From a virus (taxonomy: Duplodnaviria > Caudoviricetes), in the IMG/VR virus record IMGVR_UViG_3300036791_000154, positions 1 through 52,616 of that record: a stretch of DNA of 52,616 nucleotides. One strand, given 5' to 3'. Of the stretch, positions 6,387 through 51,027 are shown piece after piece. The notes below the pieces were generated by a model. It was given only the letters and a program-made list of their open reading frames with translations. It made no database searches and was not told where the DNA came from. The position numbers and the translations under genes were made by a program. Within the stretch, counting starts at the first letter, position 1. Each line of letters begins with the position of its first letter.

Positions 6387-7292
6387 CTAAATCCACCTAT
6401 GGCGATATTGCATAGTGCAAGTGCCAGCAGCGCTACCGCTAAACGTGTAATTGATTTGATTCATACCTGGAGCCAATGTCAACCACGAGCTTTTCGTATA
6501 GTCATATAAACTAAGGCGATTAAGCGTGGGATCATTGTTCTCATAAATAGTGCGGTTATGACAGGCAATCCATAACACTTGTCCAGGATTTACCGTACCA
6601 TTTAAGTAGATTCCCTGCTTAGTTGTCATGTTGATAATCGCAGGATTGACTACTTGCCCAACTATGATAATGATTGGGTAGACAACGACATTGCCTTCAT
6701 TATCAATCTCTGTCGTTGTCCCTACATAGCCTTGTGGGATAGTGAACGCACAAGGATCGGCACTAAAGCAATACCCAGTGTTTGTTACACAAAGTCCACC
6801 AGTGCCTACTCCAGCAGCAATCGGCGATGACACTTGATCAGCAGATTCACTAACACCTGCTGGGGCTTTCCACGCTGCGCTCGCTGAAATGACAGGTCCA
6901 TATTGGCGCGTCAATGGCGACGTTAATGTGTCACCGCGTAATTGAATTCGACGCTCACCGTCATAACCATTCTCTTGAAAGTAAATCCATGGCCGTCGTG
7001 ATGGTGCCGCAAGTGCGCGAATCTTATCCCATATTACTGCGGGATAAGGCGCATCCTGTGTCGGCACAACATAGCCATTCCACGTTACTGCTCTGTCACC
7101 CCAGAATTGCGTAAGGTCAGTTACCCCATCGCTATTGGGGTTATTGTTCTCGACTGCTCTGGGTGCTGGCCAACCATAATCAATCGAGCCAGTGAATATC
7201 GGACCAGCGCAAAAGTGTGGATCAGCGTCATCGTATTGCAACTGGATTGATTCACCAGTAATTTCGTCAACTAATCGCGAGGTAGTAGCCAT
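6387..7292 (-). CDS. Distal tail protein (Dit)
   Basis: Directly after the tape measure gene; C-terminal WLTLAPGMNQI..YRHRWI is a Dit-type signature. Confidence 0.75.
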   Translation of the reverse strand: MATTSRLVDEITGESIQLQYDDADPHFCAGPIFTGSIDYGWPAPRAVENNNPNSDGVTDLTQFWGDRAVTWNGYVVPTQDAPYPAVIWDKIRALAAPSRRPWIYFQENGYDGERRIQLRGDTLTSPLTRQYGPVISASAAWKAPAGVSESADQVSSPIAAGVGTGGLCVTNTGYCFSADPCAFTIPQGYVGTTTEIDNEGNVVVYPIIIIVGQVVNPAIINMTTKQGIYLNGTVNPGQVLWIACHNRTIYENNDPTLNRLSLYDYTKSSWLTLAPGMNQINYTFSGSAAGTCTMQYRHRWI

Positions 7293-9460
7293 CAGAGCCT
7301 ACTTGCTACTAAGGCAGCTTCCAGCTTTTGCACAATAGCTGCTGGGGAATTGTGCCCAAAGTCGATAGTCGCATTAGGGAATAGATTGATGATACGACCG
7401 CCTGCACTATGCCCAGCCAGACTTACTCCATGACCACTAATCTCAGGTATTGCACCAGCCGCCATCATGCTGGATGCATTCGCTACTAGATGCTTATTCT
7501 TAGTGATGCCACCAGCCATACCCTGCACTACATTAAGACCAATCTCTTCCATCACCTTAGATGGTGACAGCATCTTTAAGACTTTTCTGATTGGAGCAGG
7601 GATGCTATTAACGACAGTGCTTGTAACCGCTGAGACAAGCGAACCAGCCATACTAGTAATGCCATTAATCAAGCCCTGGATAACACTGTTGCCAGCGCTA
7701 ATAAGCCATGATCCAGCACCGCTAACGGCATTGAGCGCATCCTGTCTCAATCCGCTTAAACCGCGACTGATAGCCCCACCTACGGTGCCTGCAAGACTGC
7801 CCAATGCACCCGCTATTCTGCCTGGCAAACTTTGGAACCAACTAGTCGCACTGCCAACAAGGTTAGAGATTGCGCCTATCGCGCTATGCCACATTCCAGT
7901 TACAAAGCCAACGACATCGCTAGCCATACGACTAACAAAGCTTGAAACATCACGCCAAAGCTTCTCAAAGAATGGGGCAATCACATTCCAGTGTTGAATG
8001 ATCAGCAACGGTATGCCGATAAACGGCATGGTCGCAGCAAGGATAATTGGCCCATATTTCTTGATGATATTTACAACAGTCTTCCAAGTATCATCAAAGA
8101 ATTTGATGAAGTCTTTGAATGCACTAGTTACGGCATGCAACGCATCCATGAAGTATTGCTTTAGATCATGCGCAACCAAATTGACTAAATCATGGAACGG
8201 CTTGATCTTCATGTATGCCAGGATAAAGCCACCAGCCAAAAGAGCAATACCAGCAACGATAAGGATAATCGGTCCCAGTGCTGCATCCTCTGATAAGCCC
8301 AAAGCGACGTTAACGCCAGTCGATATCTTGGCGATAGCGTTTTGCAGCTTTTCTATTTCCATGAATTCTTTGAATGCTTTAACGCCTCTTCCTAGCTTGC
8401 CAATAATGCCAGACTCAATGATTGCACCGAGACCCATCATAACTGGCCCAGCAGCTTGTATCGCCGGACCAACCTTTTGCCCCACAGTAGAAGCGAAATC
8501 TTCGATTCTTGCGCGTGCCGCTTTCATGTGTCCAGTGAATGTATCGGCAGCTACGCTTGCCTGTCCAGCAAGCTTTTTAGCTAAAAGATCAGAGGCAGCG
8601 GCACCAATATTGGTGTTCGCAGTCATGCCCTTTATTTCTTTCTGTAAATCCTTTGCTTTTATAGTGTTCGTTGCGATCGCTGCTGTTAACGCCGCGCGCG
8701 TTGCTTTATCCTTTGTATTTATTTTTTCCAGTTTCTCTGTCTCGATTGCTGATTGAAGCTTTGCTAACGCATCTTCCTTTTCTTTCCTAACGCCAGTGTC
8801 AGAAAGTTTATTAATCTCGGCAGTAGTAATCCCATACTGTTTAAGCGTCTTTGTATTGCCGTTCATTACTCTTGCGACGATGCCTGCAGCATTAGCTAGG
8901 CTGACATGTTTTTGGGAAGCAAGGTCAGTTACTAACTGCATGTTTTTATATGACTCAGAAACGTTTCCAGTACGAGATACTAAGACACCCATAGCCCTAG
9001 CGGTATCTACTGCCGTATAACCAAAGTGCTCTTCATGATGGATTGTCTCTTCTGTTTTCTTGCTGTATTCATCCCACGAACCACCAGCATTTACAACGAC
9101 ATCCTTTAGCTGGCCCATGGCGATTTTATCCTTATCACCCATGGTTACAAGCAATGTTCCAGTGGCTGTCGCAGCGGCACCGACACCCAAAAGGCTCTTG
9201 CCTACCTTGCTTTTCATGCCTTCTGTTGCAGTGCCGAATGTGTCCACCTTATCAAGCAATTCTTGCACTGGCGCTAACGCTGGACTAAACGATGACATTA
9301 GCGTGCCACTCATTGCCTTAAACGCAGTGCGAGCACGGTTGGAAGCTTGCTCTGATTTTTGACCGACTTGCTTTTCAACCTGATTGCCAGTGTTCGCTAA
9401 CGCTGGGGAAAACTCATCTTTCATCTTAACGTTAATGAAAGCTTCGCCAAGAATTACCAT
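7292..9460 (-). CDS. Tape measure protein
   Basis: 722 aa Ala/Gly-rich helical protein with hydrophobic segments and a SPSKVM motif; follows the tail assembly chaperones. Confidence 0.9.
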   Translation of the reverse strand: MVILGEAFINVKMKDEFSPALANTGNQVEKQVGQKSEQASNRARTAFKAMSGTLMSSFSPALAPVQELLDKVDTFGTATEGMKSKVGKSLLGVGAAATATGTLLVTMGDKDKIAMGQLKDVVVNAGGSWDEYSKKTEETIHHEEHFGYTAVDTARAMGVLVSRTGNVSESYKNMQLVTDLASQKHVSLANAAGIVARVMNGNTKTLKQYGITTAEINKLSDTGVRKEKEDALAKLQSAIETEKLEKINTKDKATRAALTAAIATNTIKAKDLQKEIKGMTANTNIGAAASDLLAKKLAGQASVAADTFTGHMKAARARIEDFASTVGQKVGPAIQAAGPVMMGLGAIIESGIIGKLGRGVKAFKEFMEIEKLQNAIAKISTGVNVALGLSEDAALGPIILIVAGIALLAGGFILAYMKIKPFHDLVNLVAHDLKQYFMDALHAVTSAFKDFIKFFDDTWKTVVNIIKKYGPIILAATMPFIGIPLLIIQHWNVIAPFFEKLWRDVSSFVSRMASDVVGFVTGMWHSAIGAISNLVGSATSWFQSLPGRIAGALGSLAGTVGGAISRGLSGLRQDALNAVSGAGSWLISAGNSVIQGLINGITSMAGSLVSAVTSTVVNSIPAPIRKVLKMLSPSKVMEEIGLNVVQGMAGGITKNKHLVANASSMMAAGAIPEISGHGVSLAGHSAGGRIINLFPNATIDFGHNSPAAIVQKLEAALVASRL

Positions 9461-9793: not shown

Positions 9794-10123
9794 GTCTCCA
9801 TATTCACCAGCTAACCATTCGAGAATTTCCCCCAGTGTTTCAATGGGAATCGCCGTATCAACGTCATTGATCAATGTCTTGAATCTCGCTCTGTCATAAG
9901 GCATTAAAGCCCCATCAAATAAACGAATCAATTCAGTAGACTGTATGCCAATTTCTGCATTCATTGCCGCTGCGATTTGCAATAGCAAACCACCAGCAAC
10001 ACTTGGGCGCGCTTGAAATTTGTCAGTCTGCTCAACAAATTCGTCATTGACCATGCGATCGTAAGTAACCTCGAAATCCAACGGTGGCCTCTTATCGCGA
10101 GGCGCTTTAAATTGCTTCGGCAT
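9782..10123 (-). CDS. Tail assembly chaperone
   Basis: 113 aa ending EWLAGEYGDRPT*, an ending typical of actinophage tail assembly chaperones. Confidence 0.75.
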   Translation of the reverse strand: MPKQFKAPRDKRPPLDFEVTYDRMVNDEFVEQTDKFQARPSVAGGLLLQIAAAMNAEIGIQSTELIRLFDGALMPYDRARFKTLINDVDTAIPIETLGEILEWLAGEYGDRPT

Positions 10124-43039: not shown

Positions 43040-44878
43040 TTACCTGATACCTCCAATGATTGCCCGAATGTAATTATCGACGCCTCGCCTACCGTCAAGA
43101 ATTGCTTTTGTTATGGCTTCCTTTCTCCCTGTTACGTCACTGATGTATTCGTCGATAGTGTCCTTACACTTCAAGTAATAAATCGTGACTTGATGAATGC
43201 GACTAACGCGGTGGATACGATCTTCCAATTGCTCTTGATCGTCAGGCGTCCACGTTTCGTCAATGATGACAAGCTCATCGCAATAGGCATCGAGCGTGAT
43301 TGACACGCCTCCAGCGGTAGTGTTCATGAGCATTACGCGCGGTCCACCCGCTGCTTGCCAGCGACTAGTAACCGCTACCCTCTCAGATTCCCTTACTTCA
43401 CCAGTAATCTTTAGAGTTTCAACGCCGATTGAAGCTAACCATTCTTCGCAAGAATTGATGACTTGCGTAAACTGGCTTGCAATAACAATCTTGTTTTCAC
43501 CCTGTCGATCATCCTTTGGACCTGCGATGCCACGCTCTTCCAGCATCTCCAAAATCACCGATGCCTTACCGCTATGAATCGGCTCAAACATCGCTACTGG
43601 CTTAGGTGTCTGTACGGCTCGCCATGCGCAATTAGAGAATTGCTTTAAGCGAGTTATAACCGCGAGGATACCCACAGCGCTAAGGGCTTCATCTTCCATG
43701 TCGATAAGCTCAGCCATAGCCTTATCGCGCATCTGCACATACATTCGTTGCTGAGCGTCGGTCATATCGCAATACACCGTAATACGCTGCTTTGGCGGTA
43801 GCTCTTTTACAACTTCTGCCTTAGTGCGGCGCAGCATTACATCATCCAAGGATTTGAAGAATTCCTTTTCAGCGTAAGGCTTAACCTCACCGTAGGTAGT
43901 TCCCCAGCCGCTGTTATACATGACTAGGTATCTTTCAGCCCACTTCCAAAACGACGGATATTGCTCTGGCCTAAGCCAATGCAACGTACCCCACAGATTC
44001 TTAGGCTTACCCCGCATCGGTGTACCTGATAGCGCAATTTTCACGCCATCATTTGCAAGTTTAAGTCCAAGGATGCCTTTACCTACTTGCGTGACATCCT
44101 GCTTGCCTTTCACGCCGCTAAGATATTTGTGACTCTCGTCCAAGACAAGAGCTTGAAATTCTAGCTCGCATAAAAGCTGGTACTTTTTCTTTGCATCTCG
44201 CACCATTTCGGGATTCACCACTAGAATATGTGGCGATTCAGGGTTATCCAGATAGTGTTCAACCCACTGCTGGATGATTACCCCACGTGCATAAGCGGAA
44301 TCTCGCTTCTGTGGCACACCAATTACGGTGTACGCATCAGGCGCGTACTTTTTAAGCTCAGTATCCCAGACAGGACGTAATGACGTTAGCGGAGCAGCAA
44401 CTAGGATCAATCCTTGCCAACAATCGGCTTCGATCAATCCAGCTATTGCCTCTAACGTCTTGCCCAATCCTGGCTCATCCGCGATTAATGCTTGCCTTTG
44501 TTTTGCAATGAATTTCGCACCGACTTGCTGATATGTGCGCGTAGACATTGCTTCAACTAACCGCTGATGATTACCTAGCTTATCCAGTTTGGCTTCGCCA
44601 GCTTTCACCATCTCTGCAAGGGCATTCTCTTCTGCTATGGCGTCACGCGCCCAAGCATTGAGTTTCTTACCAATCTGCAATTCCTTATCGAAAAACTTTC
44701 GCAGATTACGGCACATATCAAGGGATAATGGCATATGCCAAAGTTCCCTTTTCTTGTCCCATCTTGCACCTAGGCGCCTAAAGTAATACTGATTACCGTA
44801 GGGTGTCTGAGCCCAGATTTCGCCATTGAAGATTTCGACCTTAACGATTCTTTCTGGATCTACGTTGTCGTCAGCCAC
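43040..44878 (-). CDS. SNF2-family helicase
   Basis: ADEPGLGKT, LDESH, LSGTP, LRRTK and QLEDRIHR motifs; likely GTG start at 44878. Confidence 0.9.
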   Translation of the reverse strand: MADDNVDPERIVKVEIFNGEIWAQTPYGNQYYFRRLGARWDKKRELWHMPLSLDMCRNLRKFFDKELQIGKKLNAWARDAIAEENALAEMVKAGEAKLDKLGNHQRLVEAMSTRTYQQVGAKFIAKQRQALIADEPGLGKTLEAIAGLIEADCWQGLILVAAPLTSLRPVWDTELKKYAPDAYTVIGVPQKRDSAYARGVIIQQWVEHYLDNPESPHILVVNPEMVRDAKKKYQLLCELEFQALVLDESHKYLSGVKGKQDVTQVGKGILGLKLANDGVKIALSGTPMRGKPKNLWGTLHWLRPEQYPSFWKWAERYLVMYNSGWGTTYGEVKPYAEKEFFKSLDDVMLRRTKAEVVKELPPKQRITVYCDMTDAQQRMYVQMRDKAMAELIDMEDEALSAVGILAVITRLKQFSNCAWRAVQTPKPVAMFEPIHSGKASVILEMLEERGIAGPKDDRQGENKIVIASQFTQVINSCEEWLASIGVETLKITGEVRESERVAVTSRWQAAGGPRVMLMNTTAGGVSITLDAYCDELVIIDETWTPDDQEQLEDRIHRVSRIHQVTIYYLKCKDTIDEYISDVTGRKEAITKAILDGRRGVDNYIRAIIGGIR

Positions 44879-45059
44879 GATTATCACTGACAAACAACTT
44901 GCTGATTTGGCAGATGCGCAAAGCACATTTGCCATCAACGTTGACCCAGATTACCTTGCCATCTTCCCTGAATTCGACTTCTACGATGTCGGGAGCAGTA
45001 ATATCTAGCATCCCTTCACTGTAGTTATATCGTCCAGGTAATACTGGCTCGTTATTCAT
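44871..45059 (-). CDS. Hypothetical protein
   Basis: ORF after a GGGAGGCAC RBS hairpin. Confidence 0.65.
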   Translation of the reverse strand: MNNEPVLPGRYNYSEGMLDITAPDIVEVEFREDGKVIWVNVDGKCALRICQISKLFVSDNRG

Positions 45060-45148: not shown

Positions 45149-45559
45149 TTAGAAAACGTCATCTCCAGAATCAAGCTCGCGCAATAATTCGCGCGCACGC
45201 TCAACACGCGCCTCCATTCTGGCTCGCTGCTCTGCTAATTTTGCCGCTCGGGCCTTGTCTTTCTCCAAATGCTCTTCTGCCTCTTTTGCAGTCATCGGCT
45301 TATAGCGCTCTGGATCTATGTCTGCCGATATCTCGAATAGAACATCATTCGCGACGATATCAGCAGGCACATTTGTGCTCCAGAACCAATCGCCTTCAAG
45401 GCCATTAAGCAATAGCACGACTAGCGCTTTTTCAAGCTCATTGTCATACGCGCCTTGGGCTTGCAGACTGTTGTAAACCTCCGAACAACGTTGCTGAGCC
45501 GAACCGTTAGGCGCGTACTTTTGCAAAATCCCCAGTAACGCATAGGCATTTTCATTCAT
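45149..45559 (-). CDS. Early-region hypothetical protein
   Basis: 136 aa, C-terminal coiled coil, ATGA overlap. Confidence 0.65.
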   Translation of the reverse strand: MNENAYALLGILQKYAPNGSAQQRCSEVYNSLQAQGAYDNELEKALVVLLLNGLEGDWFWSTNVPADIVANDVLFEISADIDPERYKPMTAKEAEEHLEKDKARAAKLAEQRARMEARVERARELLRELDSGDDVF

Positions 45560-45894
45560 CGGTCATACTCCAGACGCTTGCCTGAGCCTTTAATGCGATC
45601 GTTGGCAGCATCAATCAATTGATATATCGACTTGCCAGTCATCTGGGTATACGCTCGCGCATACCCTTCTAACCAACCTTTTCGATATTCAGTCGATTGA
45701 TCGAATCCAGCAGTCATCACGATTAACGAGATGGTTTGAGCGAATGTTTTTTCGATCAATCCATTGATACCCGTTCTATCGGGAGTATCTGCCCGCGACT
45801 TGTTTGGAGAGCCATACCACGATTCATTGGCGAATTGATCTTCGCCATAGTTCCCAGTGATGTGGCGGTCCAGTGACTCTTGCCATCGTTCCAT
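45556..45894 (-). CDS. Early-region hypothetical protein
   Basis: LDRHITGNYGEDQF motif; SD hairpin upstream. Confidence 0.7.
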   Translation of the reverse strand: MERWQESLDRHITGNYGEDQFANESWYGSPNKSRADTPDRTGINGLIEKTFAQTISLIVMTAGFDQSTEYRKGWLEGYARAYTQMTGKSIYQLIDAANDRIKGSGKRLEYDR

Positions 45895-45920
45895 GTGCGC
45901 CTCCCTGACGCTATTCTGAT

Positions 45921-45979
45921 GGTCTCATCAGACAAGCATTTAGCTTGTGACACCCTTACAAAATAAGGGTGTTTCGACC
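45921..45979 (-). ncRNA. Type II hammerhead ribozyme HHR1
   Basis: GGUC-GAAA-CACCCUUA(UUUUG)UAAGGGUG-UC^-ACAAGC(UAAAU)GCUUGU-CUGAUGA-GACC; predicted cut between 45949 and 45948. Confidence 0.93.
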
Positions 45980-46228
45980 TTAGATCGGCAACGATCGATC
46001 ATCCGCGCGCATGATATCCGCATAGTTATCGTGAATGTATGCATGAATACGTGACGCCTCATGCGTTGCATCCGCGATGACATCGTCCAGAGTGCTTGCC
46101 CTGACGTTATCGGCACTTCTGCCATTCTGCATGCCGCTAGCGCGAATAGCCTCTTGAATAAAGGCTAACTCTTCGGCGTCCAATGAAATCATCGTTGTGA
46201 CGACAACTTCATTCTTGAAGCTTGCCAT
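45980..46228 (-). CDS. Early-region hypothetical protein
   Basis: Start MASFKNE after GGGAGGCACA; the stop TAA abuts HHR1. Confidence 0.7.
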   Translation of the reverse strand: MASFKNEVVVTTMISLDAEELAFIQEAIRASGMQNGRSADNVRASTLDDVIADATHEASRIHAYIHDNYADIMRADDRSLPI

Positions 46229-46256
46229 TGTGCCTCCCAGCACTAGTGTTTCTGAT

Positions 46257-46315
46257 GGTCTCATCAGCGCACGATTAACGCGCGGACACCCTTACGCTTA
46301 AAGGGTGTTTCGACC
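46257..46315 (-). ncRNA. Type II hammerhead ribozyme HHR2
   Basis: GGUC-GAAA-CACCCUU(UAAGCGU)AAGGGUG-UC^-CGCGCG(UUAAU)CGUGCG-CUGAUGA-GACC; cut 46285/46284. Confidence 0.93.
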
Positions 46316-46325
46316 TTTCGCGCAT

Positions 46326-46366
46326 AACAAAAGCGAGCCAACCCAAGTTAGGCTGACTCGCTTTTG
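46326..46366 (-). terminator. Intrinsic terminator-like hairpin
   Basis: GCGAGUCAGCCU(AACUU)GGGUUGGCUCGC followed by UUUUGUU, about 25 nt after the 46392 stop. Confidence 0.65.
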
Positions 46367-46391
46367 CTACGCGACTTTTGCAGAAAAGCCT

Positions 46392-46949
46392 TTAGAATGC
46401 TGGCTCTTCTTGGGGTGCTGGCTCTGCGGGAGTCTCTGCGGTAGCAGCTTCGCCCGCTTGTCCAGCAGCCATTTTCGCCTGCAATTCGCGGACACGCGCG
46501 GCACGTTCGGCGTAACGCTTCGCCTGCGCTTCCAGTTGCTTCATCCGCTTTTCGTCCTTTGCCAATTGCGCGGCAGCCTCTTCTGGGGTTGTCGGCAAAG
46601 GCTCTTCCTTTGGACGCGGTCCCGCTGCTTCCAACTCTTCCGAAAGCTTGATGAATTCATCCGTCTTTCGGAAGACCTGATAAAGCGCCTGGCAAGCAAC
46701 GATAGTCGCCATGTCCATGGTGTACTTTTCGTTGCTTTCGCGATTGATCCAATTGGCAAAGGCAACGTGTTTCGGCGCATTCCAATTACGCTTCATCGCC
46801 TTGTCAATTGTCGTCGCGAAATCGGCGTCAACTTCTGTCGCCTCTTCGGTGTGATCCGCTTTTGCTTCGGTGCTCGCAGCATTAGCAGCATCGGTGCTCG
46901 CATCGGTGCTAGGTGCATCGGTGCTCGCGATGTCGGCAACGTCTGTCAT
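46392..46949 (-). CDS. Acidic Ala-rich coiled-coil hypothetical protein
   Basis: 185 aa with ASTDA repeats; SD hairpin and a long structured leader upstream. Confidence 0.75.
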   Translation of the reverse strand: MTDVADIASTDAPSTDASTDAANAASTEAKADHTEEATEVDADFATTIDKAMKRNWNAPKHVAFANWINRESNEKYTMDMATIVACQALYQVFRKTDEFIKLSEELEAAGPRPKEEPLPTTPEEAAAQLAKDEKRMKQLEAQAKRYAERAARVRELQAKMAAGQAGEAATAETPAEPAPQEEPAF

Positions 46950-47065
46950 TTCCTACCTCCCAGTAGGTTCTAGCTAGCCTGTCTGACTAGCTCCTATCAA
47001 TGCTGACACTAGCGGTTAGAGTGCTAATCCGCTAGACCTTATCGCCAATTTTTCTAGCTCATTTT

Positions 47066-47124
47066 GGTCTCGTCAGTGTGCGCGTTACGCACAGACACCC
47101 TTTGTTACTAAGGGTGTTTCGACC
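47066..47124 (-). ncRNA. Type II hammerhead ribozyme HHR3
   Basis: GGUC-GAAA-CACCCUU(AGUAACA)AAGGGUG-UC^-UGUGCG(UAACG)CGCACA-CUGACGA-GACC. The only core change is at the variable position 7. Cut 47094/47093. Confidence 0.93.
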
Positions 47125-47132
47125 TAGCTTGC

Positions 47133-47288
47133 TTAGGCTTCTAATGCCGCTAGTAGCTTGCGGCACCTATCGGAAACATTCCCACGATTAGTGCCTAACC
47201 GCGTGAATTCCAACGCTTGCATCATCGTTCGATATTCAGCGTTGCTAAGCACAATCACCTTGTTTCCAGTGGCAATCCGCGTTGCCAT
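47133..47288 (-). CDS. Early-region hypothetical protein
   Basis: Start MATRIATG overlaps the upstream stop (TGATG). Confidence 0.55.
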   Translation of the reverse strand: MATRIATGNKVIVLSNAEYRTMMQALEFTRLGTNRGNVSDRCRKLLAALEA

Positions 47289-47584
47289 CACTTTTGCCCT
47301 TTGAATATAGGGCATGTTTCCAAGTGTGGCTCAGTGTGGCATTCATACAATGATGAAAGCGCAAATTCATTGGCTTCTAGATAAGCGTTTTTCTCTTCTC
47401 CAGAGGCCATGCCTGCGTATTTCTCAGTCATCGCATCAATGTATTTCCAATCACCCTGGCTCATGATGCATTCGATTTCAGCGATCTTTTCGGCTTCTGA
47501 GTCATTCGCCCAGGCATATTTCAATAGCCATTCGCGAATTTCTGCCTCCAAGAACACTGGCTTGTCTGATTCATTTTCAGTCAT
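47288..47584 (-). CDS. Early-region acidic hypothetical protein
   Basis: 98 aa; TGATG coupling at both ends. Confidence 0.65.
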   Translation of the reverse strand: MTENESDKPVFLEAEIREWLLKYAWANDSEAEKIAEIECIMSQGDWKYIDAMTEKYAGMASGEEKNAYLEANEFALSSLYECHTEPHLETCPIFKGQK

Positions 47585-47820
47585 CAGACGCGCCTATCTT
47601 CTGGACCGCCGAGCTTCGCAATATGCGCATTAAGATCAGCTAGCGCACCCTTGCGAGTGCGAGCTTTCGTAATGCCCTGTCGCTGTAACGCCTTTAGCGT
47701 TGACTGACGAAACATGATGCCCTTGATTTCCAAGTGCAATCGTCCGCGCATGCTCAGCAGTGCGAACATATTGATTTCGTCTGGCGTGTCCAGGATAATG
47801 TCGCCATTATCGTTAATCAT
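47584..47820 (-). CDS. Early-region hypothetical protein
   Basis: 78 aa, L.LEIKG motif; SD hairpin upstream. Confidence 0.7.
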   Translation of the reverse strand: MINDNGDIILDTPDEINMFALLSMRGRLHLEIKGIMFRQSTLKALQRQGITKARTRKGALADLNAHIAKLGGPEDRRV

Positions 47821-47907
47821 TTGTGCCTCCCTGACACTTGTAATTGATCTTGCTTATCCTAATCGGATAGGGAATCACCCACATTCCATGGGTAATTCGC
47901 AATCGGA

Positions 47908-48105
47908 TTAGTTGTCAGCTAATGCCTTGTCACCCTCAATAGCGCCAACTAGCAGCGCATCAGAAAGCGAGCAATAACGTCCAACAGCGGTTAGCGTAAC
48001 CGAACCGTCGGAATTCCAAGACATCTTCGATAGTGTTGCCGTAGCGTCACCATCTCTCTGAATTACAGCATGACTTTCGCCGTAATAGATTATGCCTTTT
48101 TGCAT
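47908..48105 (-). CDS. Early-region hypothetical protein
   Basis: 65 aa; SD hairpin upstream. Confidence 0.65.
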   Translation of the reverse strand: MQKGIIYYGESHAVIQRDGDATATLSKMSWNSDGSVTLTAVGRYCSLSDALLVGAIEGDKALADN

Positions 48106-48144
48106 TTTGTGCCTCCCATGACACTGGTATTTCTAATTTCTGAT

Positions 48145-48203
48145 GGTCTCATCAGTGACGCATTAAGCGTCAGACACCCTTACGAACAAAGGGTGTTTCG
48201 ACC
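48145..48203 (-). ncRNA. Type II hammerhead ribozyme HHR4
   Basis: GGUC-GAAA-CACCCUU(UGUUCGU)AAGGGUG-UC^-UGACGC(UUAAU)GCGUCA-CUGAUGA-GACC; cut 48173/48172. Confidence 0.93.
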
Positions 48204-48205
48204 TT

Positions 48206-48706
48206 TCACCAATCGTATTTTTTAGCGCAGATTGGTCCAATACCGCGTGCAATCGACTCAGGATCGGTTAGCGGACTACCGCAAATACCGCATGCGCCAA
48301 CCTGCATTCCAAACGCCTGACTCGCAAGCGCAGGATCTTTTACGATTTCCGCGACAGCAAATCGCCAATCGGCAGCGCTAACGCGCGTGTACCGGAAATC
48401 GCCAGGGCTTCCAAGAACCTTTTGCACATAACGTCTTCCGTTATTGCGCGAGGTAGTAACCCTAAAGAAACGCCAGGTGTTGTCAGTACCGACAATCGCG
48501 TAACGACCATCGGGAATCGTGTCAGGCACAATCCAAGAAGTTGCCTTCTTAGGCATGCCTAAAAGCTGCTCAATAATCGTGCTAGCAGCAACGCGATCCA
48601 GATTTGGCCGTAACTCAGCGAGCTTTATCACGTAGTCAGCGGGTATTTCTCTACCCTCCAACAGACTATCGATAAAAGCGCTCTGCTTTTCGGTTACATC
48701 AGCCAT
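48206..48706 (-). CDS. DUF6011-type Zn-ribbon protein
   Basis: C-terminal CGICGSPLTDPESIARGIGPICA; start MADVTEKQ after the SD hairpin. Confidence 0.75.
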   Translation of the reverse strand: MADVTEKQSAFIDSLLEGREIPADYVIKLAELRPNLDRVAASTIIEQLLGMPKKATSWIVPDTIPDGRYAIVGTDNTWRFFRVTTSRNNGRRYVQKVLGSPGDFRYTRVSAADWRFAVAEIVKDPALASQAFGMQVGACGICGSPLTDPESIARGIGPICAKKYDW

Positions 48707-48752
48707 TGTGTTTGTGCCTCCCATGACACAGTGCAATAGAGTGACTATTGCT

Positions 48753-48811
48753 CATCTCATCAGACAAGTAACTAACTTGTGACACCCTTATTTCGTAAGG
48801 GTGTTTCGATG
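48753..48811 (-). ncRNA. Type II hammerhead ribozyme HHR5
   Basis: CAUC-GAAA-CACCCUUA(CGAAA)UAAGGGUG-UC^-ACAAGU(UAGUU)ACUUGU-CUGAUGA-GAUG. Stem II covaries (CAUC/GAUG). Cut 48781/48780. Confidence 0.92.
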
Positions 48812-48816
48812 TTTGG

Positions 48817-49113
48817 CTATCGATACGTAACGCCGTTATGTATCGCGAATTCGCCGATTTGCGACTGTCGCGCAATCTCGGTAATTGGCCACCATGTCTC
48901 GAAGCCGTTTACCAACGTGACTCGCACGTAGCAATCTCTGACGTCATCGGGACGCGGCGAATCGTTGTCTCCAGAAAGGTAGCGAAGCGTACCCTCTGCG
49001 ATTTCACCGCCCGGCATGTATCGCCTGACTTTTGCGTTATGCATAAGCGCGCGCATGACATCAGCTAAGCCGTAAACTTCACCTGGCGTTAGCGGACCAT
49101 GATTTTTAGACAT
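48817..49113 (-). CDS. Early-region hypothetical protein
   Basis: Start MSKNHGP after GGGAGGCACA. Confidence 0.7.
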   Translation of the reverse strand: MSKNHGPLTPGEVYGLADVMRALMHNAKVRRYMPGGEIAEGTLRYLSGDNDSPRPDDVRDCYVRVTLVNGFETWWPITEIARQSQIGEFAIHNGVTYR

Positions 49114-49152
49114 TGTGCCTCCCTGGCACTCACTGCGAAGCGATCGCAGGAA

Positions 49153-49211
49153 AATCTCATCAGGCAAGTAGCTAACTTGCGACACCCTTATTTCGTAAGG
49201 GTGTTTCGATC
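49153..49211 (-). ncRNA. Type II hammerhead ribozyme HHR6
   Basis: GAUC-GAAA-CACCCUUA(CGAAA)UAAGGGUG-UC^-GCAAGU(UAGCU)ACUUGC-CUGAUGA-GAUU. Overlaps the upstream TGA stop. Cut 49181/49180. Confidence 0.88.
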
Positions 49212-49626
49212 ATGCGCTAACAAGCGCTGCAAGCATGGCTTCCAACTCAGCGATCAGTGACGCAGTGTCAGAAGCGGTAACCGTGACTGTCTCAGTCGCA
49301 ACAGGCGCGGTCTCCATGGTGGCAGCCTTAGCAAGCTCGCGAGCAGCCTTACGGGCCGCGCGAACCTTGATACGGTCGCACTTGGCAGGCACTTCCACGC
49401 CCGCCATCTTGTGGCAAACCTTGCAGCCAAAGAGTCCAGAATCGACTGCCTCAGCGTAAGTCATGCCTGACGTACCCGTTAGACGGTACGTTGTGAAAAC
49501 CTCATTGCCCTGGCTAGCGTGAGTCGTCCAGCCAAGCACAACCCCACGGCAGTCATCGAAAAGGTGAAAGTGGTTACCGTTCACACTGTTGATAACGAAT
49601 GACTCAGGGTTAATTACGGTGCTCAT
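49210..49626 (-). CDS. First early gene, hypothetical (H..DC...CKVC metal-binding motif)
   Basis: 138 aa; SD hairpin upstream; follows the long non-coding region. Confidence 0.7.
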   Translation of the reverse strand: MSTVINPESFVINSVNGNHFHLFDDCRGVVLGWTTHASQGNEVFTTYRLTGTSGMTYAEAVDSGLFGCKVCHKMAGVEVPAKCDRIKVRAARKAARELAKAATMETAPVATETVTVTASDTASLIAELEAMLAALVSA

Positions 49627-50542
49627 TTTGCCCTCCCAGGCGATAGTTGCTTATCCCTTTGACAAGCAGCCAGTGACACAAGCCTTGCAAGTGTTGCTCT
49701 TATGTCCTAGGCAATCTGTCAAACGACAGCTTGCGAAAAACGACCTAGCAGCTTTTGTGTTTCGGGAGGCCACTAGGTCTCGGGAGTCTCTATTTAATGT
49801 CTACCCGCAAGGTTAAAGGGTTGATATTCCCTGTACATGCTTGACCACACGAGACAGAATTTACGTAGCTACCGCTGAATGCAACTACCAGCCAGCATGT
49901 CGCGTAATCATCAGATAGGCTTGAATCTTGCGATTCCGCCACTTCCCTGCATCCGCGCGACCATCGTTTCAGATGTGCTCTCGATAGGTCACTAGTCAGC
50001 GCTTGCGTAAAACTCGCGCTATCAAGGTGCCTTACCCTTGCGAATCTATTTTCTTGTTTTTCGCTTGCAAGAGAATCTTCGCACGGATTCCCAGAAAACC
50101 TCAACTTTTGAGGCTCGTTGTTACCAAACCGTGACCATACCGTTATGGAACCGTGACTTAGTGTCCCATATTGCCCTACTTTGTCCGATTCCCTGATTGT
50201 CGGCATCGCGTGGACCGTCGGCAATGTCCGATTCCTGGATTGCCTCGATTGCCTGGGATGTCCGAATACTGGGCCTGCCGACGGCACAAGATGTCGCGAT
50301 TGTCCGTATTTTGGGACCGTTACCTTACGGCGTGACCTTGCGAGATTTGCCGATTGCCGAGCTTGTGAGCCAATCTGAGACATGTTGATCTTGACCTAGT
50401 AGGGTCACACCCCGGATTACTTGATCTTGTTAGCGTCGATTCTAGGCGTTCGATAGTTCGCGAAACTAACTATCTCTTGCGATTTCGGCTCGTTGGACCG
50501 CCAGACTCCCGTATTTACTGGCCTGTAGCCCTGGATTGGCCG

Positions 50543-50728
50543 TTAACGAGCCTGAGATGGCCGTAGGCCCAAGATCATTTAGCATGCTTGCAGCCACCCT
50601 AGGTACCCCAAAAACTCCAGCCTACGGCGATCTGGGTCTTAACGGCTCTGAGATGGAGTCTAAGCCATGATCTTTTAGCATGGTCGCAACTACCCTCGAC
50701 ACCCCAAAAAAGTCGCTTAGGCTCCATC
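50543..50728. repeat. Imperfect tandem duplication (96-bp period), each unit closed by a covarying stem
   Basis: Units start TTAACG at 50543 and 50639; stems GCCGTAGGC/GCCTACGGC and GATGGAGTCTAAGC/GCTTAGGCTCCATC. Confidence 0.65.
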
Positions 50729-50876
50729 GACCCTATTTGATCTTGGAATCGAGTTTCGCCTTATTCTATAAGCCCAAACGAGTTTGCCCTTGCAAAATAA
50801 GGGCAAATGGAAAACTAGGCTCGGTGAGGCCCAAGCCTAGTTCTCCTACCATATTTAGTTGTTCTGTTTCTCCTAC

Positions 50877-50918
50877 AGAATTAGTAGACAACCCGTGGAC
50901 CTTTTGTCTACTAATTCT
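50877..50918. repeat. 15-bp inverted repeat (one of several hairpins downstream of the lysin)
   Basis: AGAATTAGTAGACAA-12 nt-TTGTCTACTAATTCT; other hairpins near 50782-50806 and 50813-50842. Confidence 0.7.
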
Positions 50919-51027
50919 AGTAGTCCTATAGATAACGTCCAGGTAGCGGAGTGTGGCCTCTGTCCCAATCCTCTTAACCGCGTTTAAATGCATTAATCAA
51001 TGCGAGGCACCTGGACAAGCCTATTAG

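What the first reader, a model, noticed from the sequence alone, without database searches (positions are those of the whole stretch)
45921..49211. Six type II hammerhead ribozymes punctuate the phage early operon
Seen in sequence: six 59-nt intergenic elements on the coding (minus) strand at 45921, 46257, 47066, 48145, 48753 and 49153. Each reads stem II 5' strand - GAAA - stem III - GUC^ - 6-bp stem I with 5-nt loop - CUGANGA - stem II 3' strand. The core is invariant except at position 7, which is known to be variable. Stem I differs in sequence between copies yet always pairs (ACAAGC/GCUUGU, CGCGCG/CGUGCG, UGUGCG/CGCACA, UGACGC/GCGUCA). Stem II covaries (GGUC/GACC versus CAUC/GAUG), and G10.1-C11.1 is kept. 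U1.7 is present in all six, and an A precedes stem II in five, matching the known minimal A-U tertiary contact. Established: this is the hammerhead consensus with stem II open (type II). Inference: the early polycistronic mRNA cuts itself into gene cassettes of 400, 608, 1079, 809 and 336 nt with hairpin-protected 5'-OH ends. That would be a protein-free analogue of RNase III processing of T7 early RNA. Isolated hammerheads near phage genes are known; I cannot tell from sequence alone whether such a gene-by-gene array has been described.
Basis: partly seen in the sequence, partly recalled or inferred. Interest (0 to 1): 0.96.

Follow-up and report, generated by a model that had tools for sequence, protein, structure and literature searches.

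The report
Hammerhead ribozyme array in phage operon
Six small self-cutting RNA motifs (hammerhead ribozymes) sit between the small genes at the start of an uncultured soil phage's main operon, a real and well-supported example of an arrangement that was already described for phages in 2011.

Summary
Six 59-nt elements on the minus strand (45921, 46257, 47066, 48145, 48753, 49153) carry a complete hammerhead core and three helices in type II order. All 108 pair cells are paired. Stem I covaries at 6 of 6 pairs and stem II at 2 of 4. Three related IMG/VR phages carry the same element upstream of the same helicase gene: 12, 7-9 and 1 copies. Across 24 copies, 15 of 18 pairs show compensatory changes.

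The elements belong to a pseudoknot-free "minimal" type II subclass. Stem II has 4 bp, U is at position 1.7 and an A precedes stem II. Rfam's curated threshold misses all six.

Self-cleavage of the operon transcript into five cassettes, four of them with one gene, is the best reading. No RNA data exist for it.

The idea is not new. Perreault et al. 2011 described multiple hammerheads flanking single genes in prophages, proposed this processing, and showed cleavage for triple arrangements. Unrelated viral contigs carry arrays of 5-9 copies.

Verdict: a real, ordinary-to-nice new member of a known kind. Interest is moderate.

The parts
49153..49211 (-). Hammerhead copy 6 (first one transcribed). 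Stem II is GAUC/GAUU. Predicted cut lies between 49181 and 49180. The first 2 nt overlap the TGA stop of the upstream 138-aa ORF.
   Evidence: The covariance model gives 84.7 bits. Stem II adds no predicted stability.
48753..48811 (-). Hammerhead copy 5. Stem II is CAUC/GAUG. Predicted cut lies between 48781 and 48780. It lies 46 nt upstream of the DUF6011 gene. A hammerhead precedes the DUF6011 homolog in all four related phages.
48145..48203 (-). Hammerhead copy 4. Stem II is GGUC/GACC. Predicted cut lies between 48173 and 48172.
   Evidence: The covariance model gives 94.1 bits.
47066..47124 (-). Hammerhead copy 3. The core has C at position 7 (CUGACGA). Predicted cut lies between 47094 and 47093.
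46257..46315 (-). Hammerhead copy 2. Predicted cut lies between 46285 and 46284. This is the only copy that Rfam reports, as RF02276 at 27.3 bits, below the gathering score of 37.
45921..45979 (-). Hammerhead copy 1. Predicted cut lies between 45949 and 45948. It starts directly after the TAA stop of the upstream 82-aa ORF.
48140..48155 (-). Core-masking hairpin CUGAUG-AGAC-CAUCAG, which overlaps C3-G8 and the 3' strand of stem II of copy 4. The same hairpin occurs at 46252-46267 (copy 2) and 45916-45931 (copy 1).
   Evidence: The minimum-energy folds form this hairpin instead of stem II. The motif occurs in 5 of 25 copies in the clade and 5 of 188 elsewhere, against a chance rate of about 0.003 per element.
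45556..49626 (-). The ORFs that the array separates, in order of transcription:
- 49626-49210 (138 aa), then copy 6
- 49113-48817 (98 aa), then copy 5
- 48706-48206 (166 aa, DUF6011), then copy 4
- 48105-47908, 47820-47584, 47584-47288 and 47315-47133 (65, 78, 98 and 60 aa), then copy 3
- 46949-46392 (185 aa), then copy 2
- 46228-45980 (82 aa), then copy 1
- 45894-45556 (112 aa)
   Evidence: ORF lists come, and start codons were read. Only the DUF6011 gene matches Pfam (PF19474, E 1.3e-16), and it matches phrog_636. The 78-aa ORF matches phrog_19182. The other 8 of the 10 ORFs scanned have no family.
47838..47907 (-). The only spacer inside the array without a hammerhead. It forms two adjacent hairpins that line up with stems III and I, but the core is missing (GAAUU in place of GAAAC, and no CUGAUGA). 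It may be a decayed copy.
   Evidence: The covariance model does not detect it at E<=10, so the homology is only suggestive.

Best explanation
The six elements are catalytically competent type II hammerhead ribozymes. They belong to a minimal subclass without a pseudoknot. Stem II has 4 bp and is open. Stem I is a 6-bp hairpin. In place of the usual loop I to 3'-tail pseudoknot, an unpaired U1.7 probably contacts the A that lies just 5' of stem II.

The elements are transcribed as part of a long minus-strand RNA. That RNA starts somewhere in the 1.4-kb non-coding stretch at 49627-51027 and runs into the helicase and replication genes.

Each copy cuts after its GUC. This releases five cassettes of 400, 608, 1079, 809 and 336 nt, plus the downstream replication mRNA.

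Each upstream product ends in the stable stem III hairpin with a 2',3'-cyclic phosphate. Each downstream product starts at a 5'-OH, directly in the stem I hairpin. In three copies a second hairpin forms from the former core and stacks next to stem I. The next Shine-Dalgarno site and ATG lie 26-116 nt beyond the ribozyme's 3' end.

The likely purpose is to uncouple the stability and translation of neighbouring small early genes.

What is shown: motif, structure, covariation, positional conservation, intergenic placement and strand.

What is inferred: transcription, cleavage in vivo, the nature of the ends, and the purpose.
For: Core and structure:
- The core is complete in 6 of 6 copies. The pairs next to the core are standard (G10.1-C11.1, A15.1-U16.1, and N1.1-N2.1 paired).
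- 108 of 108 cells are paired, and stem I covaries at 6 of 6 pairs.
- RNAalifold finds the same junction independently.

Related phages:
- The relatives share a helicase at 55-59% identity.
- The covariance model finds 12 plus-strand copies in L009, 7 in L010 and 1 in L019. It finds 0 in the other 8 more distant loci.
- My descriptor finds 10 copies in L009 and 9 in L010.
- All copies lie on the coding strand upstream of the helicase. None lies elsewhere in those records.
- Across the 24 aligned copies, 99.5% of cells are paired and 15 of 18 pairs show compensatory change. The only invariant pairs are the three next to the core.
- H17 is C in 25 of 25 copies. Position 7 is U in 23 and C in 2.

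Positions are conserved:
- A hammerhead follows the stop codon of the 138-aa gene's homolog in the window, L009 and L010.
- A hammerhead precedes the DUF6011 homolog in all four phages.

Placement in the window: five copies lie within 0-8 nt of a stop codon or overlap it (gaps of 0, 2, 5 and 8 nt, and a 2-nt overlap), and all lie 26-116 nt before a start codon.

Subclass features are tightly linked in unrelated contigs.

Literature:
- Triple prophage arrangements cleave in vitro and in E. coli (Perreault 2011, passages).
- Three type II hammerheads of Desulfovibrio vulgaris cleave in vivo (abstract and passages).
- An unpaired U1.7 contacting the fourth tetraloop nucleotide on a 4-bp stem II gives fast minimal hammerheads (O'Rourke 2015, as described in passages of PMC11875169).
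Against: - There is no RNA evidence of any kind for this phage. The host is unknown and there is no cultured close relative (helicase at most 41.9% identical, capsid protein at most 39.3%).
- No copy reaches Rfam's gathering score.
- With flanks included, the nearest-neighbour minimum-energy fold forms stems III and I in all six copies but never stem II. The hammerhead secondary structure lies 2.5-7.2 kcal/mol above the minimum. In copies 1, 2 and 4 the competing hairpin sequesters C3-G8. Stem II of copy 6 adds nothing. Such models ignore the energy of the core's tertiary contacts, so this weakens the claim but does not refute it.
- The close relative L019 has only one copy, and that copy has an extra U after A9. 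The array is therefore dispensable in this clade.
- One cassette holds four genes, so the array is not strictly one ribozyme per gene.
- 'Early' rests on gene order alone.
Confidence: 0.8

Rival explanations
1. Conditional rather than constitutive cleavage. The hairpin CUGAUG/CAUCAG in copies 1, 2 and 4, and the competing pairings of the weak stem II in copies 5 and 6, hold part of the transcripts uncut. The array would then set graded or condition-dependent ratios of polycistronic to processed mRNA. After cleavage, the same hairpin would lock the 5' end.
For: - Minimum-energy folds prefer the masking hairpin by 2.6-7.2 kcal/mol.
- The 6-nt complement recurs in the same register in 5 of 25 copies in the clade. 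These include copies in L009 and L010 that have a different stem II. It also recurs in 5 of 188 unrelated copies. About 0.08 and 0.6 are expected by chance.
- Perreault 2011 raises regulated cleavage for phage hammerheads (Discussion passage).
Against: - Only 10 of 213 elements have the masking hairpin, so it is optional.
- The three window copies share their flanks and may owe the hairpin to common descent.
- Cleavage is practically irreversible, so a rapidly exchanging mask only slows it.
- No experiment has been done.
Confidence: 0.2
2. The repeats act mainly at the DNA level as boundaries for cassette exchange. The conserved 20-30 nt of core plus stem III would give short homologies that let small early genes be swapped, gained or lost. 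Ribozyme activity would be secondary, or would be the trait of a selfish module that travels with the genes.
For: - The region is highly mosaic. Of the 10 window ORFs within the array, only 4 have a homolog in L009, L010 or L019.
- Copy number varies among phages whose helicases are 55-59% identical: 12, 7-9, 6 and 1.
- Homologs of two genes that have no hammerhead in front of them in the window are each preceded by one in L009 or L010.
- Perreault 2011 notes that the flanked genes are not constant.
Against: - DNA homology alone does not explain a perfectly conserved catalytic core together with compensatory changes in every stem across 24 copies.
- It does not explain why all copies lie on the coding strand.
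- Stem I is only about 31-33% identical between window copies, which shortens the usable homology.
- This reading is compatible with the best explanation as an added effect, not a replacement for it.
Confidence: 0.12
3. Ligation rather than mere cutting. A cassette carries the 3' half of one ribozyme at its 5' end and the 5' half of the next ribozyme at its 3' end. The shared 4-bp stem II could bring these halves together. The hammerhead's reverse reaction, or an RtcB-type ligase, could then join the 5'-OH and the cyclic phosphate. The result would be circular or rejoined mRNAs.
For: - The type II order places the two halves exactly this way.
- Stem II is identical (GGUC/GACC) in 4 of 6 copies. 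The mixed pairs of neighbours would still form 3 bp (sequence; the pairing is my inference).
- Stem III is 100% identical among the six copies, while stem I and loop III have diverged to about 33%.
Against: - Perreault 2011 looked for spliced or circular products in their arrangements and detected none (data not shown in the paper; passage).
- Four base pairs bridging 300-1000 nt is weak.
- No RNA data exist for this phage.
- No ligase gene was looked for here.
Confidence: 0.05
4. The elements are non-catalytic structured repeats. They would be stabilising hairpins, protein-binding sites or RNase sites that only resemble hammerheads, or they are dead relics.
For: - Rfam scores are below threshold.
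- L019 carries hairpin-only elements at corresponding intergenic positions, and the window has one such spacer. Hairpins without a core are therefore tolerated there.
Against: - All 13 core positions are intact in 25 of 25 descriptor-positive copies, while the stems change freely with compensation.
- One chance match was found in 1.39 Mb of shuffled sequence.
- Relics would accumulate core mutations, as the two variant copies do (L009 4602-4705 and the L019 copy at 8536-8620).
Confidence: 0.03

Closest known systems
Clustered hammerhead ribozymes flanking genes in prophages (Perreault et al. 2011, PLoS Comput Biol, PMC3088659; passages read)
   Same: [quoted passage not shown]
- The authors propose that long phage transcripts are processed into operon-length or single-gene mRNAs.
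- Triple arrangements cleave in vitro and in E. coli.
   Different: - Here there are six copies in 3.3 kb, and 12 in 5.4 kb in a relative. The arrangements named in the passages I read are triple ones. I could not see Figure 3 or the supplements, so larger published arrays cannot be excluded.
- The published type II consensus has a pseudoknot between loop I and the 3' tail, and these copies lack it.
- This is an uncultured soil phage contig, not a prophage of a cultured bacterium.
Rfam RF02276, Hammerhead_II (clan CL00010)
   Same: The same core, the same circular permutation (stem II open, stems I and III capped), and cleavage after C17.
   Different: - The best score is 27.3 bits against a gathering score of 37, and 5 of 6 copies are not reported even at E<=10.
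- Hairpin I is 17 nt long.
- There is no pseudoknot partner downstream of stem II.
Engineered minimal hammerhead HHmin-AL4:U1.7 (O'Rourke, Estell and Scott 2015). I know it only through passages of PMC11875169; the paper itself is not held.
   Same: Stem II has 4 bp. An adenine sits at the position of the fourth tetraloop nucleotide (the nucleotide 5' of 11.4). An unpaired U lies seven nucleotides after the cleavage site. Here the A occurs in 23 of 25 copies and U1.7 in 23 of 25.
   Different: - These elements are natural and act in cis.
- Stem II is open instead of being capped by a GNRA loop.
- The Hoogsteen contact is inferred from co-occurrence, not shown.
HHphage of haloviruses HF1/HF2 (described in Perreault 2011, Discussion passage)
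   Same: - It is a hammerhead in the early region of a lytic virus, 13 nt upstream of a DNA helicase gene that opens a polycistronic transcript. The mapped 5' end of that transcript lies within 3 nt of the cleavage site.
- In L009 and L010 the last hammerhead of the array likewise sits directly in front of the helicase gene.
   Different: - It is a single variant ribozyme in an archaeal virus.
- In this window two ORFs lie between the last hammerhead and the helicase.
RNase III processing of the phage T7 early transcript (recalled textbook knowledge; no call)
   Same: It works alike. An early polycistronic RNA is cut in intergenic hairpin structures into mostly single-gene mRNAs with structured ends.
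   Different: - It is not the same family. T7 uses a host protein enzyme acting on double-stranded sites, and this gives 5'-phosphate and 3'-OH ends.
- A hammerhead needs no protein and leaves a 5'-OH and a 2',3'-cyclic phosphate.
Type II hammerheads of Desulfovibrio vulgaris shown active in vivo by cyPhyRNA-seq (PMC8782182; abstract and passages)
   Same: They are type II hammerheads next to hypothetical and phage-like genes. The method maps exactly the ends predicted here.
   Different: They are three separate loci in a bacterial chromosome, not an array within one operon.

Membership tests
Hammerhead ribozyme (clan CL00010) | Conserved core: C3 U4 G5 A6 N7 G8 A9, G12 A13 A14, A15.1-U16.1, and H17 (not G) | tested here: met
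   6 of 6 window copies meet it, and 25 of 25 descriptor-positive copies in the clade. Position 7 is U in 23 and C in 2. H17 is C in all 25.
Hammerhead ribozyme (clan CL00010) | Three helices around the core, with standard pairs directly next to it (10.1-11.1, 1.1-2.1, 15.1-16.1). These are the acceptance rules quoted from Perreault 2011's Methods. | tested here: met
   108 of 108 cells are paired in the six copies, and 99.5% in 24 copies. RNAalifold gives the same junction.
Hammerhead ribozyme (clan CL00010) | Helices supported by compensatory substitutions | tested here: met
   8 of 18 pairs within the window, and 15 of 18 across 24 copies from four phages. 0 of 500 shuffles reach these values, and slid controls give 31-42% paired. 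That alignment was fitted to the model, which favours pairing. The MAFFT alignment was not fitted.
Hammerhead ribozyme (clan CL00010) | Mg2+-dependent self-cleavage after H17, giving a 2',3'-cyclic phosphate and a 5'-OH | not testable with these tools
Type II hammerhead, Rfam RF02276 | Circular permutation with stem II open and stems I and III closed by loops | tested here: met
   The order of segments was read. The one Rfam alignment spans model positions 1-66 of 66.
Type II hammerhead, Rfam RF02276 | Score at or above the curated gathering threshold (37 bits) | tested here: not met
   0 of 6 copies at gathering. The best is 27.3 bits, and the other five are not listed at E<=10. There were also 0 hammerhead hits in L009, L010 and L019 at gathering.
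Type II hammerhead, consensus of Perreault 2011 | A pseudoknot of 4 or more bp between loop I and the nucleotides just 3' of stem II | tested here: not met
   - Window: 1 of 6 copies has a 4-bp complement, with 0.7 expected from shuffled tails.
- Clade: 6 of 25, with 4.75 expected.
- Positive control: 117 of 122 unrelated type II copies with 22-24-nt hairpin I have it, with 48.8 expected.
- The paper itself says 'a majority' of type II copies have it, not all.
Minimal hammerhead with a single A-U1.7 tertiary contact (O'Rourke 2015, second-hand) | A 4-bp stem II, an adenine at the L2.4 position, and an unpaired U at 1.7 | tested here: met
   - Stem II cannot be extended to a fifth pair in 24 of 25 copies.
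- The A is present in 23 of 25, U1.7 in 23 of 25, and both together in 21 of 25.
- In 8 of 25 copies U1.7 could instead close a 3-nt loop by a wobble or standard pair.
- The two features co-occur in the 17-nt-hairpin subclass elsewhere, in 46 of 50 each.
Minimal hammerhead with a single A-U1.7 tertiary contact (O'Rourke 2015, second-hand) | Formation of the Hoogsteen A-U pair and its effect on the cleavage rate | not testable with these tools
   This needs a structure, or kinetics of mutants at the A and at U1.7.
Clustered phage hammerheads (Perreault 2011) | Several copies in one orientation flanking single genes or short gene blocks in a phage genome | tested here: met
   - Six copies lie on the coding strand between ORFs of 60-185 aa.
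- The contig encodes a terminase, portal, capsid and tape-measure protein, DNA polymerase, primase and helicase.
- IMG/VR classes it as a virus record, 73% complete.

The most novel reading that the evidence does not exclude
The type II order and the shared 4-bp stem II are not accidental. Each excised cassette carries complementary ribozyme halves at its two ends. These can reassemble and be religated, either by the hammerhead itself or by an RtcB-type ligase. The phage would then make circular or re-joined early mRNAs, which amounts to cassette shuffling or stabilisation at the RNA level. This could also explain why stems II and III are kept uniform within the array while stem I and the loops have diverged to random identity.
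Probability: 0.05. Interest if true: 0.85.

Novelty: new member of a known kind. Interest (0 to 1): 0.42.

Why it matters
The biological role of bacterial and phage hammerheads is still called largely elusive in reviews (passages).

This phage clade offers a natural comparison series. Phages with the same replication module carry 12, 7-9, 6 and 1 copies. The copies lie at partly matching positions. In one relative, hairpin-only elements sit where the others have ribozymes.

That comparison gives concrete test constructs for a clear question. Does cleavage itself, or only the terminal hairpins, set the stability and translation of small early genes?

There is also a practical point. The pseudoknot-free subclass with A and U1.7 falls below Rfam's threshold, so routine annotation will miss such arrays. 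In my pattern-selected sample, 16 of 130 distinct loci had three or more copies, and 9 had five or more (with the two duplicate loci removed). That sample is biased and is not a prevalence estimate.

Tried and rejected
- **Rfam at gathering thresholds.** The window gave no match. Six related loci gave only a tRNA.
- **Similarity searches against cultured phages.** blastn of the 3.6-kb region and of one 59-nt copy found nothing. I therefore found no cultured phage with this array. That collection cannot be scanned with a covariance model.
- **Exact pattern of this window's stem III.** It gave 0 hits in IMG/VR (the window's own record may be left out of that collection). In genome contigs it gave 2 hits, both in metagenome-assembled genomes and uninformative about the host.
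- **Public sequencing runs.** No RNA holder is listed. The only full holder is a soil DNA metagenome that may be the source of the contig. Read laying was not used, because DNA contigs cannot show RNA ends.
- **Host.** I could not assign one. The nearest cultured relatives of the helicase and capsid protein are actinobacteriophages at 42% identity or less. The window's GC content of about 45-53% does not settle it.
- **A second copy family or another known ribozyme class in the relative L019, which lacks the array.** A permissive Rfam scan gave only chance-level snoRNA and miRNA hits. The two-hairpin elements there remain uncharacterised.
- **Terminator reading of stem III.** I rejected it. 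Stem III is followed by C17 and stem I, not by a U run, and the consensus scan lists no terminator at any copy.
- **Literature searches for larger arrays or for this subclass.** The listings and the passages I read named nothing beyond Perreault 2011 and the reviews. I could not see the figures or supplements of Perreault 2011 (Figure 3, S1-S5), which may show array sizes and tertiary-contact classes. I therefore do not claim that either is unpublished.
- **Papers not held.** Hammann et al. 2012 and O'Rourke et al. 2015 were not held.

Full report
**What the window is.**
- The window is a whole IMG/VR virus record of 52,616 bases. It is linear and estimated 73% complete.
- In my greedy ORF pick, 69 of 89 ORFs, including every ORF above 120 aa, lie on the minus strand.
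- PHROGs names a helicase (43040-44938), exonuclease, Sak4-like annealing protein, DNA polymerase, primase, large terminase, portal, capsid protein and tape-measure protein, in that order of transcription.
- The region of the finding lies just upstream of the helicase. It lies downstream of a 1.4-kb stretch without ORFs (49627-51027).
- Calling it 'early' therefore rests on gene order only.

**The observation.**
- A MAFFT alignment shows that the core, stem III and U1.7 are invariant, while stem I and loop III vary.
- On the hammerhead structure, 108 of 108 cells pair. Stem I covaries at 6 of 6 pairs and stem II at 2 of 4. No shuffle (0 of 500) reaches the observed values, and slid controls drop to 31-55% paired.
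- RNAalifold predicts the same three-way junction unaided.
- A covariance model built from the six copies finds only these six in the window with filters off. It finds only these six in the record as a whole.
- My descriptor for type II hammerheads gave 1 hit in 1.39 Mb of shuffled sequence, against 222 in real loci.
- Rfam, however, lists none of the six at its gathering thresholds. In permissive mode it lists only 46249-46315, as Hammerhead_II at 27.3 bits against a threshold of 37.

**Relatives.**
- The helicase protein retrieved 11 IMG/VR loci.
- The model finds 12 plus-strand copies in L009, 7 in L010 and 1 in L019. It finds none in the 8 more distant loci.
- The descriptor finds 10 copies in L009 and 9 in L010.
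- Scanning the whole records shows that all copies lie upstream of the helicase.
- Two extra L009 copies are variants. One has a C-A mismatch in stem I. The other has C at core position 4.
- The single L019 copy has an extra U after A9.
- In the 24-copy alignment, 99.5% of cells pair and 15 of 18 pairs carry compensatory changes. Only G10.1-C11.1, A15.1-U16.1 and C15.2-G16.2 never vary. That alignment was fitted to the model.
- Positions are partly matching between phages. A hammerhead abuts the stop codon of the 138-aa gene's homolog in the window, L009 and L010. A hammerhead precedes the DUF6011 gene in all four phages.
- Otherwise the gene content is mosaic. Only 4 of the 10 window ORFs in the array have homologs in the relatives.

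**Which kind of hammerhead.**
- In 25 clade copies, the nucleotide before stem II is A in 23. Position 1.7 is U in 23. Stem II cannot be extended beyond 4 bp in 24. H17 is always C.
- Among 188 type II copies in those unrelated loci, two classes separate cleanly.
  - A 17-nt hairpin I goes with U1.7 (46 of 50) and the A (46 of 50). It has no pseudoknot (4 of 50, with 5.1 expected).
  - Hairpin I of 22-24 nt lacks U1.7 (present in 4 of the 106 copies with 22- or 23-nt hairpins). It has the loop I to 3'-tail pseudoknot in 117 of 122, with 48.8 expected.
- The pseudoknot form is the published type II consensus (Perreault 2011, passage; de la Pena 2017, figure legend).
- The window's copies belong to the other class. 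That class mirrors the engineered minimal hammerhead, in which an unpaired U1.7 contacts the fourth loop nucleotide above a 4-bp stem II (O'Rourke 2015, as described in PMC11875169).
It also explains the low Rfam scores.

**Mechanism.**
- Five of the six copies start within 0-8 nt of a stop codon or overlap it: an overlap of 2 nt for copy 6, and gaps of 0, 2, 5 and 8 nt. Copy 2 follows a 25-bp hairpin instead.
- All six end 26-116 nt before the next ATG.
- Cutting after C17 would leave stem III (8-10 bp) at the 3' end of each upstream product. It would leave stem I at the very 5' end of each downstream product.
- Four of the five cassettes hold one ORF, and one holds four.
- The caveat is thermodynamic. 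With flanks, the predicted minimum-energy folds keep stems III and I but never stem II. The hammerhead fold lies 2.5-7.2 kcal/mol higher. In copies 1, 2 and 4 a hairpin CUGAUG/CAUCAG masks the core.
- That mask recurs in 5 of 25 clade copies and 5 of 188 others, well above chance. It may delay cleavage, or it may cap the new 5' end after cleavage.
- These models leave out the energy of the folded core.

**What is known.**
- Perreault et al. [quoted passage not shown]
- They state that this implies processing of long phage transcripts.
- They report that triple arrangements from three bacteria cleave in vitro, and one of them in E. coli.
- They report that no spliced or circular products were detected.
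- Reviews repeat this and call the function unresolved.
- The arrangement is therefore known.
- My scan shows it is also common. Same-strand arrays of 5-9 copies occur in L023, L044, L045, L046, L081 and L109. Five of these share no detectable homolog of the window's helicase or early genes, and L046 shares only a distant polymerase match. In L109 six copies alternate cleanly with ORFs of 108-159 aa.
- I found no text naming arrays this large. I could not see the figures or supplements, so I do not claim priority.

**Unexplained.**
- Within the window, stem III is 100% identical among the six copies. Stem I strands (31-33%) and loop III (33%) are at random identity. Base pairing alone does not require this.
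- In L019 and at window 47838-47907, hairpin-only elements occupy places where relatives have ribozymes.

**Verdict.**
- It is a new member of a known kind, with moderate interest.

Noticed in passing
L019:7106-7174, 7397-7482, 7711-7800, 9821-9910 (+); window 47838-47907 (-): L019 is the close relative that has only one hammerhead. Its intergenic spacers instead carry a recurring two-hairpin element: a long hairpin around CAUG...CAUG, then a 5-bp hairpin. The element at 7106 sits directly after the homolog of the 138-aa gene, where the window, L009 and L010 have a hammerhead. The window's only spacer without a hammerhead aligns with these elements. There is no Rfam match. It could be a decayed hammerhead, an RNase site or something new.
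   Followed up: partly
window 46320-46370 (-): A 25-bp near-perfect hairpin (-40.9 kcal/mol, z -9.6) lies between the 185-aa ORF and hammerhead copy 2. Its 3' arm runs into UUUUGUU. It is either a terminator with read-through or a double-stranded processing site placed directly in front of a ribozyme.
   Followed up: partly
window 45916-45931, 46252-46267, 48140-48155 (-); also L009:9908-9964, L010:9878-9933: The six nucleotides after stem II (CAUCAG) are the exact complement of core positions C3-G8. A hairpin therefore competes with the active fold. This was seen in 10 of 213 type II hammerheads, always in the same register.
   Followed up: partly
window 45921-49211 (-): Stem III (8 bp) is 100% identical in all six copies. 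Stem I strands and loop III are only about 31-33% identical. Pairing constraints alone do not explain a fixed stem III sequence.
   Followed up: partly
window 48711-48726, 49116-49130, 48111-48125, 47825-47839 (-) (approximate): The ribosome-binding sites of several cassette genes share an extended motif, GUGYC-A(U)GGGA-GGCAC-AA..AUG. It folds so that part of the Shine-Dalgarno sequence lies in the loop of a 5-bp hairpin.
   Followed up: partly
window 49627-51027 (-): This is a 1.4-kb stretch without ORFs upstream of the operon. It contains a promoter-like site (TGGACG, 16 nt, TAGAAT; 50941-50914) that overlaps a perfect 15-nt inverted repeat (50877-50918). It also contains three 11-nt-spaced repeats (50120-50157). 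Two tandem 96-nt units (50540-50731) each fold into a long hairpin of about -33 kcal/mol, with compensatory differences between the two units.
   Followed up: partly
L009:4602-4705 (+); L019:8536-8620 (+): These are two variant hammerheads. One has C instead of U at core position 4. The other has an extra U between A9 and G10.1. They are possibly weakened or decaying copies.
   Followed up: partly
L045:2151-5076, L044:8401-11318, L081:3616-6700, L109:9380-11775, L023:6230-9037, L046:3829-6397: These are other IMG/VR contigs, and five of them share no detectable homolog of the window's helicase or early genes (L046 has a distant DNA polymerase match). They carry same-strand arrays of 9, 7, 7, 6, 5 and 5 type II hammerheads between small ORFs. 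In L109 the alternation of ORF and ribozyme is perfectly regular.
   Followed up: partly
L019:1832-2790 (+): Long runs of 9-nt GGN-NNN-NNN repeats are present. They indicate a collagen-like Gly-X-Y protein, probably a tail fibre, right next to the early region of that relative.
   Followed up: no
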